Virus record (IMG/VR): IMGVR_UViG_2547132278_000012 | Coordinates: 1-17,675 of that record | Strand: one strand, 5' to 3' | From: a virus | Lineage: Duplodnaviria > Heunggongvirae > Uroviricota > Caudoviricetes | DNA length: 17,675 bases | Shown: in pieces, positions 3,454-14,670 of the stretch | Layout: every line of letters begins with the position of its first letter | Position numbering within the stretch: position 1 is the first letter of the stretch | Position numbers and translations under genes: made by a program | Notes under the pieces: model-generated | What the model saw: the letters and a program-made list of their open reading frames with translations, nothing else | Database searches by the model: none | What the model was told of the DNA's origin: nothing

Positions 3454-3475
3454 ATATCGTAAGTGGTTACTTATC
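3454..3475. promoter_or_regulatory. Degenerate copy of the GATAAGTA-N6-TACTTATC dyad, upstream of the CobS-like gene
   Basis: Plus-strand TACTTATC at 3468-3475 is exact; the left half is degenerate. A TATAAT-like hexamer lies just downstream on the minus strand. Confidence 0.3.
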
Positions 3476-3491
3476 GTTAAGGCTGTTTTGT

Positions 3492-5600
3492 TCACTTTAA
3501 AATGATACGAGATAGTTCAGTAACTACAGATGAACCAAGACTATCAACGCTCGTTACCAGGGCATGATTTGAGTAAAATCTCTCCGGTGCGTCAGTCATG
3601 ATGCCAATTGCCATCAAATCAATATCAGTCTGCGTTTCAATTTGCTTCGCAACTGAACGCAAATGAGCGTCAAAACCTCTCCCAACAGCCCACGGCGCGC
3701 CATCACTCAGAACAAGCATGATCTTCCTGTCCTCCATGCGACCGGAAAATAACGATGCAAGGCTGGCTATGCTTTCACCATCCACGTTATTAAGAAGTGG
3801 GAATGTGTAGCCTACGCACCCCATACGTGAGCGAACTTCGCGAGAATTTACCTTTTCATTCCAATTTTTGATGATAGGTAGCATTAAAGATTCAAAGCGA
3901 GAGAACTCATACTTGACAGCCTTAAGTTCTCCTGCCGCCATATGACTACCAAATGTAGTGAAGCCGGTGATAATGTTGGGAACATTTATTCGAACAAGGG
4001 CATCGGCGATGGTATATGCACTTGCAAGAGCCAGTTTAATCGTTATACCACTCATTGAACCTGATAAATCAATCACTTGTTGAACACAGGCGTTAACGGC
4101 TTTAGATTCTTCTTTTTTACGAAACACGCGAGCATCATTCATTGCTAATCTGTAGATACTAGAACCATGAATGCGCCCCCGACGCTGGCCCGGTATAAAC
4201 TGAACTCTGTTTCTGCTTGCTATTGCTCGCTCCAGGTCTTTTGCCAGCGTCGACGAAACACCTGACGAAAGATGCTTTTCAATATATTTGTCGAAGAGCT
4301 GGTTGCCTTCAGGAACGATGCGATAGCGGCTGATTGGATATCCTCCCAAATCAATATCGGAGAATGTTTTAATAAGCCGTTTGATATGGGCTTCTGCCTG
4401 ATCAATCGAGCCGATGAAGTCGTATGAGCGATTGTATGGCCTGTATTCGCTTTTCGAGCTTTCTGTTAACTCGCTTTTAATCGTTTCGGATAGCGCATCT
4501 TCTGTCATGCCTCCGACTTCATCTTCCATGCTATCCAACTCCTCTAAAGCCTCTTCCAGACTCATTTTTGACGGAGTTGGGATATCTGAAGAGCCGTCTT
4601 CTGTCGTTTTTCTTTTTTCGTGGTCAGCGGTTAATGATTCTGACGCCGCGTTATCAGAAGCATCAGAATCTGATACCTCTTTATCATTTTCTGTATCATC
4701 GAATATTGTTTCTGATGATTCAGAATTATCTGAATCATCACTGTCGTTATTATCATGTTTGTACTTACTATGTGATTCTGATTTGATAGATTTGTGATTA
4801 TCTAACACTGAGGGAGTCTCATGATCTTCGTTGTCTTCATTGTTTTCTCCAGAGGCATCCGTCTGGTCAGCGTCTGAAGGATCGGAAGTTTTTCCCGGAG
4901 CTGACTCCTTACCTTTGCTTTCACTTTCAGTGTCTTTGAGGATCTTAGCTATGGTCGCAGCCACCTTTACACAATCCTCGGTGCAAGACATGTTACGCAC
5001 GGCCACATCGATACCATGTTCTTTTAATAATGAAATTGGTTTCTCAATGACAGGCCAATGTTCATCCATGAAATCTACGAACGGTGCTTGGCCATCCCAG
5101 GCTCTTACAACCGGACAGAGAAAGAAGTTTAGAAAAAGCGCGCGCTGATCTTTGCCACAATAAGCAATAGCCTCTGAAGCCTTTGGTTTAAAGACTTTTT
5201 CGATTATAAGGCGCTGAGTTGCCATCAGATTACGTCTTGTTCCGTTAAAGACCTGACCCATTTTTCGCTCGATGAACACGTCTTCTAAGGCATTCCATAG
5301 CGACCAGGAAGGAACGCGTCCTTTTTCTCTCATTTTGTTGGACACACGAATATCGGTAAACAAAATGTGAGCAACCTCATGATCGAGAAATCCGCGCACA
5401 GCATTCATCAATGCCGGTGTTGCGTTATCCGGGATTGATGGGATGTTTACGAGAATTGGCTCTCCATCATCGTTATAGCGTACATAAGCGTCGTCCCCTC
5501 GTTCTGCAACAGGGATGTTTTTACCTGAAAGGAGAGCGACTACTCGTTTTACACTGTCACGGAAGTCCTGAACCTCTTTGATGGAACGTTTTTTAGACAT
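3492..5600 (-). CDS. CobT-like protein with C-terminal von Willebrand A domain and a long acidic Ser/Asp/Glu-rich linker
   Basis: MIDAS-like DLSGSM and LVLSDG motifs in the C-terminal third. About 150 aa of acidic low-complexity sequence encoded around 4400-4950. Sits immediately upstream of the AAA+ gene on the same strand. Confidence 0.8.
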   Translation of the reverse strand: MSKKRSIKEVQDFRDSVKRVVALLSGKNIPVAERGDDAYVRYNDDGEPILVNIPSIPDNATPALMNAVRGFLDHEVAHILFTDIRVSNKMREKGRVPSWSLWNALEDVFIERKMGQVFNGTRRNLMATQRLIIEKVFKPKASEAIAYCGKDQRALFLNFFLCPVVRAWDGQAPFVDFMDEHWPVIEKPISLLKEHGIDVAVRNMSCTEDCVKVAATIAKILKDTESESKGKESAPGKTSDPSDADQTDASGENNEDNEDHETPSVLDNHKSIKSESHSKYKHDNNDSDDSDNSESSETIFDDTENDKEVSDSDASDNAASESLTADHEKRKTTEDGSSDIPTPSKMSLEEALEELDSMEDEVGGMTEDALSETIKSELTESSKSEYRPYNRSYDFIGSIDQAEAHIKRLIKTFSDIDLGGYPISRYRIVPEGNQLFDKYIEKHLSSGVSSTLAKDLERAIASRNRVQFIPGQRRGRIHGSSIYRLAMNDARVFRKKEESKAVNACVQQVIDLSGSMSGITIKLALASAYTIADALVRINVPNIITGFTTFGSHMAAGELKAVKYEFSRFESLMLPIIKNWNEKVNSREVRSRMGCVGYTFPLLNNVDGESIASLASLFSGRMEDRKIMLVLSDGAPWAVGRGFDAHLRSVAKQIETQTDIDLMAIGIMTDAPERFYSNHALVTSVDSLGSSVVTELSRIILK

Positions 5601-5698
5601 GGCTAATCCTTTGTTATGAAAACAAATTATTTACTAGTGTGTTTAATGTAGCACTGCGCGAACAGGGAACTAAGCCATTCGCGCAGGGAGAAGAGGGG

Positions 5699-5911
5699 TT
5701 AACAGATTCTGACGGCTAAAGACCCGGAGCCGATATTGAGAAGCGTGAAGCGTTTGTTGTTAAGTTCGAATATAAAGCCAGTTGTGTCATTCACACCAAC
5801 CTGAATCTGCTCATTCGGTAGATCGGTGAGGATGTCAGCTACACACTCATCAGCTAATTTCTGTACGTGTCCGATCTCAAGAGCGATTAGGCTGGAAATA
5901 GTGGTGTTCAT
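5699..5911 (-). CDS. Hypothetical 70-aa protein, first gene of the minus-strand block, divergent from the HTH regulator
   Basis: ORF only; no recognisable motif. Followed by a hairpin (5654-5686) before the CobT-like start. Confidence 0.35.
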   Translation of the reverse strand: MNTTISSLIALEIGHVQKLADECVADILTDLPNEQIQVGVNDTTGFIFELNNKRFTLLNIGSGSLAVRIC

Positions 5912-6116
5912 TCAATCAATCCATTCTAACTTATACTATGGTAAGGAATACTACTAAAATTTATATCAATACTGAATACATTCATATCATATGCAAGTTA
6001 ATTTTCTTACCTGTTTTGGGCTAATTTTTCTCCGTGCAATGGCCTTTAACCGGTCTTTTAAGTGCCTATCGAAAAAATGATAATAGCTTTACAACCCTAA
6101 CCTTTGATGTAATATC

Positions 6117-13297: not shown

Positions 13298-13764
13298 TGT
13301 TGTTTTGCCTCCATATGTTGATCGATTTGCTCATGTGTTTCTTTTGTTGTTTCTTCAAGCAACGCCGCATACACGTCAGTGATCGCTGTTTGTGATGTGG
13401 CGCTCTTCTTAACCATGCTATTAATCGTTACACTGTCACGTTTTCGTTTTATAGTTCTGGCTTGTTTATTCCGTTCTTCAACCTCCTTAATGAGTGCGGT
13501 CATATCTTCGAAATACAGAGATTCTCCTTTACGAATCTCTTCAACCATCATTTTTAACGCCTTGCATTTGCCTGCTTTAATAGCGGTTGCGCACGACTGG
13601 AAAGAAGTTCGAGGAAGACGGTTTTCTTTGAAGGCAAGAATGGTGTGCTGGCAAACGGAATAGCTGCAATATGCCGACTCACCGTTTATCTTTACTTCCT
13701 CACAACGAAGTGAATAACCGTTATTTCCTGAAATAGAAGGGATTTTTGACAAATCAGCTTTCAC
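13294..13764 (-). CDS. Hypothetical Cys-containing protein (156 aa), stop overlaps the ligase start; GTG start
   Basis: ORF with a 4-bp overlap onto the ligase ATG. Start codon is GTG as read, so the exact N-terminus is uncertain. Confidence 0.5.
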   Translation of the reverse strand: MKADLSKIPSISGNNGYSLRCEEVKINGESAYCSYSVCQHTILAFKENRLPRTSFQSCATAIKAGKCKALKMMVEEIRKGESLYFEDMTALIKEVEERNKQARTIKRKRDSVTINSMVKKSATSQTAITDVYAALLEETTKETHEQIDQHMEAKQQ

Positions 13765-13831
13765 AATTACCGCTAGAAATAATCTTGTGCTTACCTATCA
13801 TTATTTGCGTAAAAAACGACACACAGAGAGC

Positions 13832-14608
13832 TTACCAACTTCCCCAGCTAATCATCTTGCGCTGATCGCTTTCTAAGCGATAAGGGGCAAGAAGCTCTGT
13901 GACATGATTGGTGGCGTATGATTTAGTCTCTTGTTTAATCATCGGTAATTCGTTAGCAATCCTGACCATCTTCCCAGCAAATTCCGCCATTACGCCATCA
14001 CAAGCCTTCCCCGCATCAACAACGATATGCACAAGATCCAACTGGCTTTTGCACATATCCCAAAGAGACGCGTATTCACTCTCTCTGATTACATTTACGG
14101 CACTATTAGCCCCTTTATTAATCAAAACTTCCAACAGATTTTTCGGGGTAACGAAATCTGCTTTCAGAGATAATGTCTTTTCACCACTTATCGAACGCAA
14201 GTACTCTTCGTAGTTATTCTTCATCAAACCGCTGCTGCGCATTGCTAGAACTGCTTCTTGAATGGCCGCTTCAATAGTTTCGTCGTTTGAAAGACAAAAA
14301 ACGGTATTTGTGTAGATCACTCTGCCATCAAGCCATGCTCCAACCTGCACTTTAAGACTGAGCGGGTTTTCTTTGCTAATAAAAACAACTAATGCAGAAC
14401 GCCGTGCACAAGAAGGTTCGCCCCATACGTGTAACTCAACTTTCAGATAAGGCAACCCTGGTAGCGGGATCTCGTCCATACGAGCAGCGATATGATTCAT
14501 TGCTGTATTGACGGCCTTTCCAATGATGTCTAGTCGACTGCCCTCGCTGATTTCTAAACCTGTTTTATCAATGATGTCACAGGCCAATTTCTGAATTTCG
14601 TCTTTCAT
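13832..14608 (-). CDS. Hypothetical protein (258 aa)
   Basis: ATG at 14608 with AGGAG 6 nt upstream. Preceded by a dyad copy about 50 bp upstream. No motif recognised. Confidence 0.55.
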   Translation of the reverse strand: MKDEIQKLACDIIDKTGLEISEGSRLDIIGKAVNTAMNHIAARMDEIPLPGLPYLKVELHVWGEPSCARRSALVVFISKENPLSLKVQVGAWLDGRVIYTNTVFCLSNDETIEAAIQEAVLAMRSSGLMKNNYEEYLRSISGEKTLSLKADFVTPKNLLEVLINKGANSAVNVIRESEYASLWDMCKSQLDLVHIVVDAGKACDGVMAEFAGKMVRIANELPMIKQETKSYATNHVTELLAPYRLESDQRKMISWGSW

Positions 14609-14648
14609 ACCAACTCCTAGCTAACAGATGAAAGTATTCTTACAAAAA

Positions 14649-14670
14649 AATAAGTATGTATCTACTTATC
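14649..14670. promoter_or_regulatory. Dyad AATAAGTA-N6-TACTTATC, centred about 52 bp upstream of the 258-aa ORF
   Basis: Same spacing to the start codon as the glutaredoxin copy. Followed on the minus strand by TTTTTGTAAGAAT. Confidence 0.45.

What the first reader, a model, noticed from the sequence alone, without database searches (positions are those of the whole stretch)
3454..14670. Recurring dyad GATAAGTA-N6-TACTTATC upstream of minus-strand transcription units
Four copies share an exact plus-strand TACTTATC right half: 3454-3475 (degenerate left half), 8145-8166, 11132-11153 and 14649-14670. Two are centred about 52-53 bp upstream of start codons with good ribosome-binding sites, the glutaredoxin gene and the 258-aa ORF. 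All are followed on the minus strand by a T-rich stretch ending in TAAG (for example TTTTTGTAAG). Conserved sequence, symmetry and fixed spacing point to a shared operator or element-specific promoter, possibly bound by the HTH regulator at 6162-6548.
Basis: seen in the sequence. Interest (0 to 1): 0.55.

Follow-up and report, generated by a model that had tools for sequence, protein, structure and literature searches.

The report
Dispersed repressor operators of SSU5-like phage-plasmids
The repeated 22-bp palindrome is real: about 22 copies mark the lytic gene units of a large family of plasmid-borne phages, and it is most likely the DNA site where the element's own small repressor keeps those genes silent.

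Summary
TACTTATC occurs 5 times against 0.35 expected. There is a fifth, missed copy at 13778-13799.

The window is an SSU5-like phage-plasmid. Its relatives Cyrano and SSU5 each carry 22 copies of RATARGTAAGTACTTACYTATY against 0.2 or fewer expected; Klebsiella pJN2-26 has the same consensus. In Cyrano, 21 of 22 copies are intergenic.

Half-sites vary independently, so this is a DNA site for a dimeric protein, not an RNA hairpin.

The "fixed spacing" does not generalise. No element sits at a fixed distance from the dyad. The flanks do hold sigma-70-like promoters in the gene direction, at varying registers. That pattern suits an operator rather than an activator box.

The HTH gene (6162-6548) is a credible binder. 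It is present in nearly all family plasmids and is expressed in lysogens. Its own conserved promoter carries the dyad's 14-bp core (6117-6130) at the predicted start site. SSU5 lacks the gene only through a recent ~6-kb deletion.

Binding and repression are inferred, not shown. I found no description of the motif in the searchable literature.

The parts
14649..14670 (-). Dyad copy D, GATAAGTAGATACATACTTATT (19/22 to the family consensus). It lies upstream of the 258-aa ORF (14608..13832) and downstream of a hairpin that ends the 137-aa ORF.
   Evidence: ATAAGTA and TACTTA are invariant and the centre varies in 16 distinct relatives.
14636..14644 (-). TGTAAGAAT, an extended -10-like element 4 nt after dyad D. 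If this is the promoter in use, the dyad spans about -41 to -20. An alternative -10, TAAAAT at 14676-14671, lies just upstream of the dyad.
   Evidence: Variants in relatives are TGTGAGAAT and TGTAAAAAT; they keep TG, the second A and the final AAT.
13778..13799 (-). It lies between the 258-aa ORF stop (13832) and the 156-aa ORF start (13764). No promoter-like hexamers lie nearby.
   Evidence: The orthologous copies are Cyrano 35606 and SSU5 39086.
11133..11154 (-). It starts 9 nt after the stop of the 96-aa ORF and heads a conserved ~750-nt stretch leading to the tRNA cluster.
11118..11125 (-). TATAAGAT, a -10-like element conserved in Cyrano and SSU5. The best promoter reading is TTTACT (inside the dyad) - 17 nt - TAAGAT, which puts the dyad over the -35 and spacer.
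8145..8166 (-). Dyad copy B, GATAAGTATGCACATACCTATC (19/22), upstream of the glutaredoxin gene (8102..7857).
   Evidence: This arrangement is found in about 36 E. coli plasmids.
8179..8206 (-). The best sigma-70-like promoter in the window: TTGATC - 16 nt - TATAAT (10/12). It ends 12 nt upstream of dyad B, so the dyad would lie at about +6 to +27.
3454..3475 (-). Dyad copy A, GATAAGTAACCACTTACGATAT (16/22; the downstream half is degenerate). It lies between the 702-aa (CobT-like) and 411-aa (CobS-like) genes.
   Evidence: The orthologous copies are Cyrano 45262 and SSU5 45123.
3431..3438 (-). TATAAGAA, a -10-like element within a block (ATATATTTATATAAGA) conserved in SSU5, 15 nt after dyad A.
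6117..6130 (+). GGTAAGCACTTACC, a 14-bp palindrome equal to positions 5-18 of the dyad consensus. It lies 1 nt after the -10 of the HTH gene's promoter and is the candidate autoregulatory operator.
   Evidence: It is conserved in Klebsiella, Enterobacter, Y. pestis pMT and Cronobacter homologs.
6088..6115 (+). Predicted promoter of the HTH gene: TTTACA - 16 nt - TAATAT.
   Evidence: Both hexamers are invariant in five divergent genomes.
6162..6548 (+). 128-aa XRE-type helix-turn-helix regulator (= CYRAN_45, annotated 'putative repressor'). It is the leading candidate for the dyad-binding repressor.
   Evidence: HTH_19 below Pfam's cut-off; phrog_8 transcriptional regulator, E = 6.6e-12.
11600..11815 (-). 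71-aa predicted winged-helix protein. It is an alternative candidate binder, for this dyad or for the second family motif. It is encoded inside a dyad-flanked operon.

Best explanation
The dyads are operators: palindromic DNA sites for a dimeric repressor encoded by the element.

The full site is about 22 bp, RATARGTAAGTACTTACYTATY. Most of its information lies in the inner 14 bp.

They lie on or next to ordinary sigma-70-type promoters at the heads of the lytic transcription units. These units cover replication, nucleotide metabolism, tRNAs, structural genes and lysis. Some dyads also lie at internal gene junctions. While the element lives as a plasmid prophage, the bound repressor blocks RNA polymerase binding or escape.

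The most likely repressor is the XRE-type HTH protein at 6162-6548. It would also shut down its own promoter through the core copy at 6117-6130.

Shown here:
- the motif, its excess over chance and its restriction to intergenic DNA;
- its conservation across genera and its symmetry without RNA covariation;
- promoter-like flanks in the gene direction, at variable register;
- the core copy in the HTH promoter;
- the family-wide presence of the HTH gene.

Taken from published data: the HTH gene is expressed, and most dyad-preceded genes are silent, in a lysogen.

Inferred: that a protein binds, that binding represses, and that the binder is this HTH.
For: 1. Excess over chance. At 17 or more of 22 matches there are 22 sites in Cyrano, 22 in SSU5 and 4 in the window, against 0.2 or fewer in Markov shuffles. 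Klebsiella pJN2-26 has the same consensus.

2. Location. 21 of 22 Cyrano sites are intergenic although 87% of the genome is coding (P = 6e-18).

3. DNA, not RNA. Over 57 sites, 73.2% of cells pair against 73.4% in shuffles. The covariation score is 0.169 against 0.171. At the variable pair there are 15 A-U, 14 G-C, 12 G-U and 16 mismatches.

4. Promoter context.
- Sigma-70-like promoter scores in 132-nt dyad regions average 8.03 in the gene direction, 6.39 antisense (P = 4e-5) and 4.40 in random windows.
- The register varies. The dyad acts as spacer between TTGAAA and TATCAT at Cyrano 57445 and 3526. It overlaps a conserved TTTACA-17-TAGTAT and the start site at 59398. Conserved -10-like hexamers lie just upstream of the dyads before dam and thyX. 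Dyad B lies downstream of TTGATC-16-TATAAT.
- Positions over the -10 or the start site are incompatible with activation.

5. Link to the HTH.
- The core palindrome lies at the predicted start site of its own promoter, and promoter and palindrome are invariant in five genomes whose HTH proteins are 56-68% identical.
- The segment GYKNxNxLSLIKxGxIPLP is invariant.
- Homologs occur in about 800 plasmids, the same census as a core family gene.
- In LF82 lysogens CYRAN_45 reads 96 against a background of 9.8. Most dyad-preceded genes read 5-15 (PMC9928086).

6. SSU5, isolated as a free phage, lacks the HTH-integrase block only through a ~6-kb deletion relative to 98-99% identical plasmids.
Against: - There are no binding data and no mapped transcription start sites.
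- The HTH promoter copy keeps only the inner arms (GTAAG-N2-CTTAC). Window copies B and D keep mainly the outer arms (ATAAGTA-N6-TACTTAT). One dimer in one binding mode may not fit both.
- Dyads inside the structural operon imply direct repression of late genes. Well-studied phages instead use positive late control (PMC10695390).
- Two dyad-preceded units are partly on in lysogens: CYRAN_34 at 44 and UvsW/CYRAN_117 at 46/114.
- Across 20 sites, promoter scores do not correlate significantly with transcript jumps (rho = 0.34, P = 0.14).
- A second palindrome family (AAACAAnTTGTTT) also flanks promoters and could equally be this HTH's operator.
- The Pfam HTH hit is below the curated cut-off.
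Confidence: 0.5

Rival explanations
1. The dyad is an activator box of middle or late promoters. A phage-encoded dimeric activator, for example the 71-aa winged-helix protein at 11600-11815 or the 88-aa protein encoded just upstream of terS, binds the dyad. It recruits host RNA polymerase to promoters that lack a -35. This would resemble P1 Lpa at its -22 inverted repeat or T4 MotA at -30.
For: - Dyads precede structural and lysis genes as well as replication genes.
- Many dyad promoters have no recognisable -35. At sites D, C, A and Cyrano 84619 and 63198, a conserved -10-like TGTAAGAAT or TATAAGAT follows the dyad by 5-17 nt.
- The P1 Lpa boxes (ATGTGACTT, AAGTTACTT) share AAGT/ACTT half-sites with the dyad core.
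- The 71-aa protein is predicted to be a winged helix (pLDDT 77; MarR/PadR-like top hits, TM about 0.7) and is specific to the family.
- Late genes are generally under positive control (PMC10695390).
Against: - No element lies at a fixed distance from the dyad.
- A downstream -10 is no better than in the mirror control (3.48 against 3.85, P = 0.29).
- Several dyads overlap or follow the best -10 or the start site, where an activator cannot work.
- tblastn finds no Lpa homolog.
- The candidate activators are at background in all published conditions, which is uninformative either way.
Confidence: 0.2
2. The dyad is an operator, but for a different protein than the HTH at 6162-6548. Candidates are the lysogen-expressed 92-aa CYRAN_117 (not in this window), a winged-helix protein, or a ParB-like protein acting as a KorB-style global silencer. 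That protein would also control the HTH promoter through the core copy.
For: - CYRAN_117 reads 114 in lysogens. It lies in an operon whose promoter region holds a dyad, and it is conserved in SSU5 and pJN2-26.
- Two ParB_N proteins are encoded after a dyad.
- The inner-arm and outer-arm site types could reflect two proteins.
Against: - The CYRAN_117 model is poor (pLDDT 61) and it has no family hit. The residues that would face DNA in a ribbon-helix-helix reading vary (Y/H/S, A/Q/K) although the dyad does not.
- The ParB-like proteins show no detected DNA-binding domain beyond ParB_N and are silent in lysogens.
Confidence: 0.17
3. The element works at the RNA level. The transcribed palindrome forms a hairpin, or is a single-stranded motif, serving as a processing site, a stabiliser or a translational operator. 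The binder could be, for example, the FljA-like protein of the family.
For: - Many copies lie 0-20 nt from a start codon or between a stop codon and a hairpin.
- The family encodes an FljA-like protein (PF03614, E = 1e-80) with weak Hfq/LSm signals.
Against: - There is no covariation. A-C mismatches occur as often as independence predicts.
- The symmetry is that of duplex DNA.
- The copy in the HTH promoter lies at the start site, not in a shared mRNA context.
- Rfam finds nothing there.
Confidence: 0.05
4. The dyads are module boundaries or recombination sites. They are conserved linkers at gene junctions that promote exchange of gene cassettes, with no role in expression.
For: - The dyads sit at gene boundaries, often within 20 nt of the upstream stop codon.
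- Dyad B heads a variable region where a low-GC gene has been inserted.
Against: - The flanks carry direction-specific promoter signals.
- A core copy sits in a regulator's promoter.
- Most copies flank conserved, syntenic genes.
Confidence: 0.05

Closest known systems
Phage-plasmid P1: C1 immunity repressor and its dispersed operators
   Same: - The host element is a plasmid prophage with many transcription units.
- One repressor site is scattered over the genome.
- The site sits at different registers relative to sigma-70 promoters: upstream of, over, or downstream of the hexamers (P1 annotation).
- The repressor's own gene is also under operator control.
   Different: - P1 operators are 17 bp in the annotation. 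From memory they are asymmetric, ATTGCTCTAATAAATTT.
- No C1 homolog is present here.
- In P1 the late operons are not C1-controlled but depend on Lpa. Here the dyads also precede structural and lysis genes.
P1 late promoters (Lpa box: 9-bp inverted repeat at -22, plus a -10)
   Same: - A short inverted repeat recurs before many phage operons.
- The AAGT/ACTT half-sites resemble the dyad core (PMC10695390).
   Different: - The Lpa box has a set distance to the -10. This dyad does not.
- The dyad is 22 bp rather than 9 bp.
- No Lpa homolog is found.
Lambdoid / 434-type XRE repressors with palindromic operators and an autoregulated repressor promoter
   Same: - The regulator is a small HTH protein expressed in the lysogen.
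- The operators are palindromes of 14-22 bp that overlap promoter hexamers.
- An operator copy lies in the regulator's own promoter.
   Different: - Lambdoid operators cluster at two or three control regions. Here there are about 22 dispersed sites.
- The protein has no detected S24 peptidase domain, so RecA-mediated self-cleavage is unlikely. Induction by DNA damage (PMC9928086, PMC9600943) would need another route.
KorB (a ParB homolog) and its 12 OB palindromes on plasmid RK2 (compared from memory, not tested)
   Same: - One palindrome is scattered over a plasmid at variable distances from promoters.
- It gives global silencing of backbone genes.
   Different: - The sequence and length differ.
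- The family's ParB_N proteins are silent in lysogens and lack a detected HTH.

Membership tests
P1 C1-type immunity operator system | A C1-family repressor is encoded by the element | tested here: not met
   tblastn of P1 C1 and Coi against Cyrano and SSU5 gives no hit for C1 and only E = 0.5 for Coi.
P1 C1-type immunity operator system | A 17-bp operator of the P1 type | tested here: not met
   The site here is a symmetric 22-bp palindrome with a different sequence. P1 operators are annotated as 17 bp.
P1 Lpa-dependent late promoter | An Lpa homolog is present | tested here: not met
   tblastn of Lpa against Cyrano and SSU5 gives a best E of 0.29.
P1 Lpa-dependent late promoter | The inverted repeat lies at a set distance upstream of a -10 hexamer | tested here: not met
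   No conserved position lies outside the dyad. A downstream -10 is no better than in the antisense control.
XRE-type HTH repressor with palindromic operators | The regulator has a helix-turn-helix DNA-binding domain | tested here: inconclusive
   Pfam HTH_19 gives E = 0.0015 and 18.9 bits, below the 30.2 cut-off. PHROG phrog_8 'transcriptional regulator' gives E = 6.6e-12. RefSeq annotators call homologs XRE or HTH regulators.
XRE-type HTH repressor with palindromic operators | A palindromic site overlaps promoter elements, including the regulator's own promoter | tested here: met
   The core palindrome 6117-6130 lies 1 nt after the -10 of TTTACA-16-TAATAT and is conserved in five genomes. 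Dyads overlap sigma-70-like hexamers elsewhere. All of this is at the sequence level only.
XRE-type HTH repressor with palindromic operators | The protein binds the site and represses transcription | not testable with these tools
   This needs gel shift or footprinting, ChIP, and reporter assays.
Structured RNA element or intrinsic terminator | Base pairing is maintained by compensatory changes; for a terminator, a G+C-rich stem followed by a T run | tested here: not met
   Pairing and covariation equal the shuffled controls. The stem is A+T-rich and has no T run. No terminator call falls on any dyad. There is no Rfam hit.
Host transcription-factor regulon site | The same site recurs in host chromosomes | tested here: not met
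   An exact-pattern scan of 185,579 species genomes found only plasmid-size contigs of Kluyvera and Buttiauxella, plus scattered single hits in unrelated taxa.

The most novel reading that the evidence does not exclude
One small XRE repressor directly silences almost every lytic transcription unit of the largest known group of phage-plasmids. This includes the head, tail and lysis operons. It would act through about 22 dispersed operators, with copies inside operons acting as roadblocks and with no dedicated late activator. On this reading the free phage SSU5 is a natural repressor-deletion (virulent) derivative.
Probability: 0.25. Interest if true: 0.65.

Novelty: new member of a known kind. 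Interest (0 to 1): 0.5.

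Why it matters
SSU5-like elements are the most numerous phage-plasmid group; one survey counted 268 members (PMC9600943). About 800 PLSDB plasmids carry the family's core gene. They are common in Klebsiella, E. coli, Enterobacter, Salmonella (pHCM2) and Y. pestis (pMT), and some carry resistance genes.

I found nothing in the searchable literature on how they control lysogeny.

A defined operator, a map of about 22 sites and a named candidate repressor turn that question into a set of simple experiments. 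They also give a handle for curing, inducing or engineering these elements. The same map gives a ready-made list of the element's transcription-unit boundaries.

Tried and rejected
1. [quoted passage not shown]. SSU5 is a ~6-kb deletion derivative of plasmids that are 98-99% identical at the flanks and carry the HTH. The HTH is near-universal in the family.

2. RNA hairpin: rejected. There is no covariation.

3. A -10 at a fixed distance, or a self-contained promoter: rejected.

4. Homology to P1 Lpa or C1: none. The resemblance between the P1 -22 boxes and the dyad core is noted, but it is only a resemblance.

5. Host regulon: rejected. Resemblances to Fur, TyrR, CpxR and Arc operators were recalled from memory. 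They do not fit in spacing and were not tested further.

6. CYRAN_117 as a ribbon-helix-helix repressor. This was read by eye from the sequence and is not supported: no family hit, a weak model (pLDDT 61), and variable putative DNA-facing residues.

7. Published RNA-seq as a test of promoter activity. There are clear transcript jumps after six dyads, but no significant overall correlation. The data are from uninduced or weakly induced cells.

8. PDB sequence searches with the 71-, 88-, 92- and 258-aa proteins: nothing usable.

9. Phyletic profiling in the phage collection: only 12 close relatives, so uninformative.

10. Papers that could not be read: the P1 genome paper (PMC523184) and a 2026 bioRxiv preprint on an SSU5-like plasmid and promoters.

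Full report
**The observation.**
- TACTTATC occurs five times against 0.35 expected; 0 of 200 shuffles reach five.
- GATAAGTA-N6-TACTTATC with up to three mismatches occurs four times against 0.07 expected.
- Scanning with the family consensus adds a fifth copy at 13778-13799, between the 258-aa and 156-aa ORFs.
- The dyad centres lie 53.5 and 51.5 nt from the glutaredoxin and 258-aa ORF start codons. Each of the four original copies is followed on the minus strand by a T-rich run ending in TAAG.

**What the window is.** It is a piece of an SSU5-like phage-plasmid.
- It is 97-98% identical to Escherichia phages CMS-2020a and Cyrano (pLF82), over about three quarters of its length. It is 79% identical to Salmonella phage SSU5, over 40% of its length.
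- IS100 sequence lies at both ends.
- The minus strand of the window is the main coding strand of these genomes.

**The dyad is a family-wide element.** The consensus RATARGTAAGTACTTACYTATY is close to a perfect 22-bp palindrome, often extended by A/T on each side.
- At 17 or more of 22 matches there are 22 sites in Cyrano and 22 in SSU5, against 0.2 or fewer in Markov shuffles.
- Klebsiella phage pJN2-26 (76% identical) has the same consensus, often in perfect form.
- In Cyrano 21 of 22 sites are intergenic or straddle a stop codon although 87% of the genome is coding (P = 6e-18).
- The sites precede portal, tail, tail-fibre, holin, ssb, sbcD, nrdA, thyX, dam, parB and many unknown genes, and one follows the major capsid gene.
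- Orthologous sites are kept between Cyrano and SSU5 while their flanks diverge.
- At site D, 16 distinct relatives keep ATAAGTA and TACTTA. They vary the six central bases.
- Exact matches in IMG/VR fall almost only on contigs of about 100 kb. In species-representative genomes only plasmid-size Kluyvera and Buttiauxella contigs stand out. So this is not a host regulon site.
- I found no paper in the held library that contains the motif or discusses regulation in this family.

**DNA, not RNA.** I aligned 57 distinct sites and counted pairs for the hairpin the palindrome would form.
- 73.2% of cells pair, against 73.4% after shuffling partners. The covariation score is 0.169 against 0.171.
- At the one strongly variable pair the four combinations occur as independence predicts: 15 A-U, 14 G-C, 12 G-U and 16 mismatches.
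- Each half-site therefore keeps its own match to a consensus. That is the signature of a duplex site read by a symmetric protein dimer.

**Relation to promoters.**
- Information content outside the dyad is below 0.6 bit at almost every flanking position; the only exceptions are the A/T-rich bases that abut the dyad and one upstream position in SSU5.
- The best -10-like hexamer downstream of the dyad is no better than in the mirror-image control (3.48 against 3.85, P = 0.29).
- Distances from the dyad to the start codon run from 0 to more than 100 nt.

Full sigma-70-type promoter scores (-35, spacer, -10) tell a different story.
- In 132-nt dyad regions they are higher in the gene direction (mean 8.03) than antisense (6.39; P = 4e-5) or in random windows (4.40). 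39% of regions score 9 or more, against 5% antisense and 3% random.
- The register differs from site to site:
  - the dyad forms the spacer between TTGAAA and TATCAT (Cyrano 57445, 3526);
  - the dyad overlaps a conserved TTTACA-17-TAGTAT and the predicted start site (Cyrano 59398 / SSU5 58073);
  - conserved -10-like hexamers lie immediately upstream of the dyads before dam and thyX in all three genomes.
- In the window:
  - dyad B lies 12 nt downstream of TTGATC-16-TATAAT, the best promoter match in the window;
  - dyad C covers the -35 and spacer of TTTACT-17-TAAGAT;
  - dyad D lies either just after TAAAAT or just before the conserved TGTAAGAAT;
  - the fifth copy has no promoter nearby.
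- A site that sits anywhere within the polymerase footprint, including over the -10 and start site, behaves like a repressor operator. It does not behave like an activator box.

**Published RNA-seq (PMC9928086, supplementary file 2).**
- In LF82 lysogens most dyad-preceded genes are at background.
- In weakly inducing conditions, transcript levels jump right after six dyads (CYRAN_4/5, 12, 34, 56, 60, 81).
- The overall correlation with my promoter scores is not significant (rho = 0.34, P = 0.14).

**Who binds.** That argument was wrong.
- The flanks of the SSU5 tRNA/cobT junction are 98-99% identical to Enterobacter plasmids. Those plasmids carry about 6 kb between the flanks, including the 70-aa gene, the HTH and the integrase. 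So SSU5 is a recent deletion derivative.
- In PLSDB the HTH, always beside the integrase, is found in Klebsiella (348), Escherichia (229), Enterobacter (92), Yersinia (63), Salmonella (49) and other plasmids. This is the same census as a core family gene (797 records).
- The HTH gene has a predicted promoter, TTTACA-16-TAATAT (6088-6115). One base later comes GGTAAGCACTTACC (6117-6130), which equals positions 5-18 of the dyad consensus. Those positions hold about 14 of its 22 bits.
- Hexamers and palindrome are invariant in Klebsiella, Enterobacter, Y. pestis pMT and Cronobacter plasmids. Their HTH proteins are only 56-68% identical to the window's. The rest of the leader diverges.
- The segment GYKNxNxLSLIKxGxIPLP, the likely recognition region, is invariant.
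- In the lysogen the HTH transcript is about ten times background (96 against 9.8), and the LF82 authors list it as the putative master repressor.

Together this makes the HTH the best candidate, but the evidence is circumstantial. One real difficulty remains. The HTH-promoter copy keeps only the inner arms, whereas window copies B and D keep mainly the outer arms. One dimer in one binding mode may not read both.

**Other candidates.**
- The 71-aa ORF at 11600-11815 is restricted to the family. It is predicted to be a winged helix: pLDDT 77, with MarR/PadR-like top hits at TM about 0.7 but weak E-values.
- An 88-aa protein is encoded just upstream of terS.
- CYRAN_117 is expressed in lysogens, but its model is poor and its putative DNA-facing residues vary.
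- Any of these could instead serve the second palindrome family.

**Comparison with known systems.**
- The logic is closest to phage-plasmid P1, where the C1 repressor acts at many dispersed operators placed at different registers on sigma-70 promoters. It is not a member of that system: there is no C1 homolog and the operator differs.
- It is not an Lpa-type late promoter either. There is no Lpa homolog and no set distance to a -10. The Lpa boxes do share AAGT/ACTT half-sites with the dyad core.
- The regulator and the autoregulated promoter look like a lambdoid or 434-type arrangement, but with about 22 dispersed sites and no detected self-cleavage domain.

**Verdict.** The feature is real, is specific to a large and clinically common family, and appears undescribed. 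It is best filed as a new member of a known kind, a dispersed repressor-operator system of a plasmid prophage. The operator function and the HTH assignment are inferences awaiting simple binding and reporter experiments.

Noticed in passing
window 5620-5632; Cyrano (L002-L004) 58, 83, 29260, 32081, 58596, 70327, 80550, 81279, 93115, 93166, 96287, 97191, 98426: A second family-wide intergenic palindrome, AAACAAnTTGTTT(T). It often occurs in pairs flanking sigma-70-like promoters with TAAGAA, TAAGAT or GATAAT -10 hexamers, before terS, parA, dnaB, cobT, nrdB and many small genes. It alternates with the dyad along gene arrays: motif 2 - cobT - dyad - cobS; dyad - nrdA - motif 2 - nrdB. It is probably the operator of another regulator.
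   Followed up: partly
Cyrano 31160, 78085, 108343/1; SSU5 33459, 78305, 103264/1 (not in the window): A long hairpin, CCTGCTTCTGTATATA - about 20 A/T bases - TATATACAGAAGCAGG, occurs three times per genome. One copie lies just upstream of terS. Its A/T loop resembles a degenerate dyad. Function unknown.
   Followed up: no
window 7745-7777: AATGATTCCATAC-ATATAGG-GTATGGAATCATT has 13-bp inverted arms around a 7-bp spacer. It lies about 100 nt upstream of the tyrosine recombinase gene (7646..6543). The architecture is loxP-like, so it may be that recombinase's site.
   Followed up: no
SSU5 L005 about 42600-42760, compared with NZ_CP031722.1 17684-24140: Phage SSU5 lacks about 6 kb that is present in 98-99% identical Enterobacter plasmids. 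The missing block holds the 70-aa gene, the HTH regulator, the integrase and neighbours. SSU5 may therefore be a natural repressor-less derivative.
   Followed up: partly
window 8277-9539 (+): A 420-aa ORF in a low-GC island (GC 0.32 against about 0.44). It has no Pfam hit and no match in the phage collection. It replaces Cyrano's highly expressed CYRAN_43 and is present in about 36 E. coli plasmids. It looks like an accessory (moron or defence-like) insertion.
   Followed up: partly
window 1-366 and 16996-17675; 307-1980: IS100 sequence lies at both ends of the window. The 557-aa ORF at 307..1980 is the remnant of the DNA polymerase III alpha gene. The primase and helicase genes expected beyond dyad D are replaced by other ORFs (137 aa, 396 aa, 128 aa).
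   Followed up: no
window 10386-11132; inverted repeats 10845-10866/10912-10933 and 9652-9671/9710-9729: About 750 nt lie between dyad C and the four tRNA genes (Asn, Tyr, Thr, Ser; 10385..9732). At least the first ~100 nt after the dyad are highly conserved in Cyrano and SSU5, and no convincing ORF is present. The region contains 20-22-nt inverted repeats and may be a structured leader or an unannotated RNA. Rfam reports only the tRNAs.
   Followed up: partly
Cyrano 100780-101301 (CYRAN_114), SSU5_121, pJN226_0046: The family encodes an FljA-like protein (PF03614, E = 1e-80), a family known as a post-transcriptional repressor of flagellin. It has weak Hfq/LSm signals. Its role in a phage-plasmid is unknown.
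   Followed up: no
Cyrano 52680-52762 / SSU5 52196-52280: The long 5' leader of the T4 gp32-like ssb gene is conserved and includes a GCTCGAAAGAGC tetraloop hairpin. It is reminiscent of the autoregulatory translational operator of T4 gene 32.
   Followed up: no
Cyrano 5464-5500, 15555-15590, 22470-22490, 67910-67945: In the late region several dyads are followed within 5-15 nt by a conserved G+C hairpin, with or without a T run. The order is stop codon - dyad - hairpin - ribosome-binding site. Transcript levels drop across three of these four junctions in the published RNA-seq (the junction at 22447 shows a small rise).
   Followed up: partly
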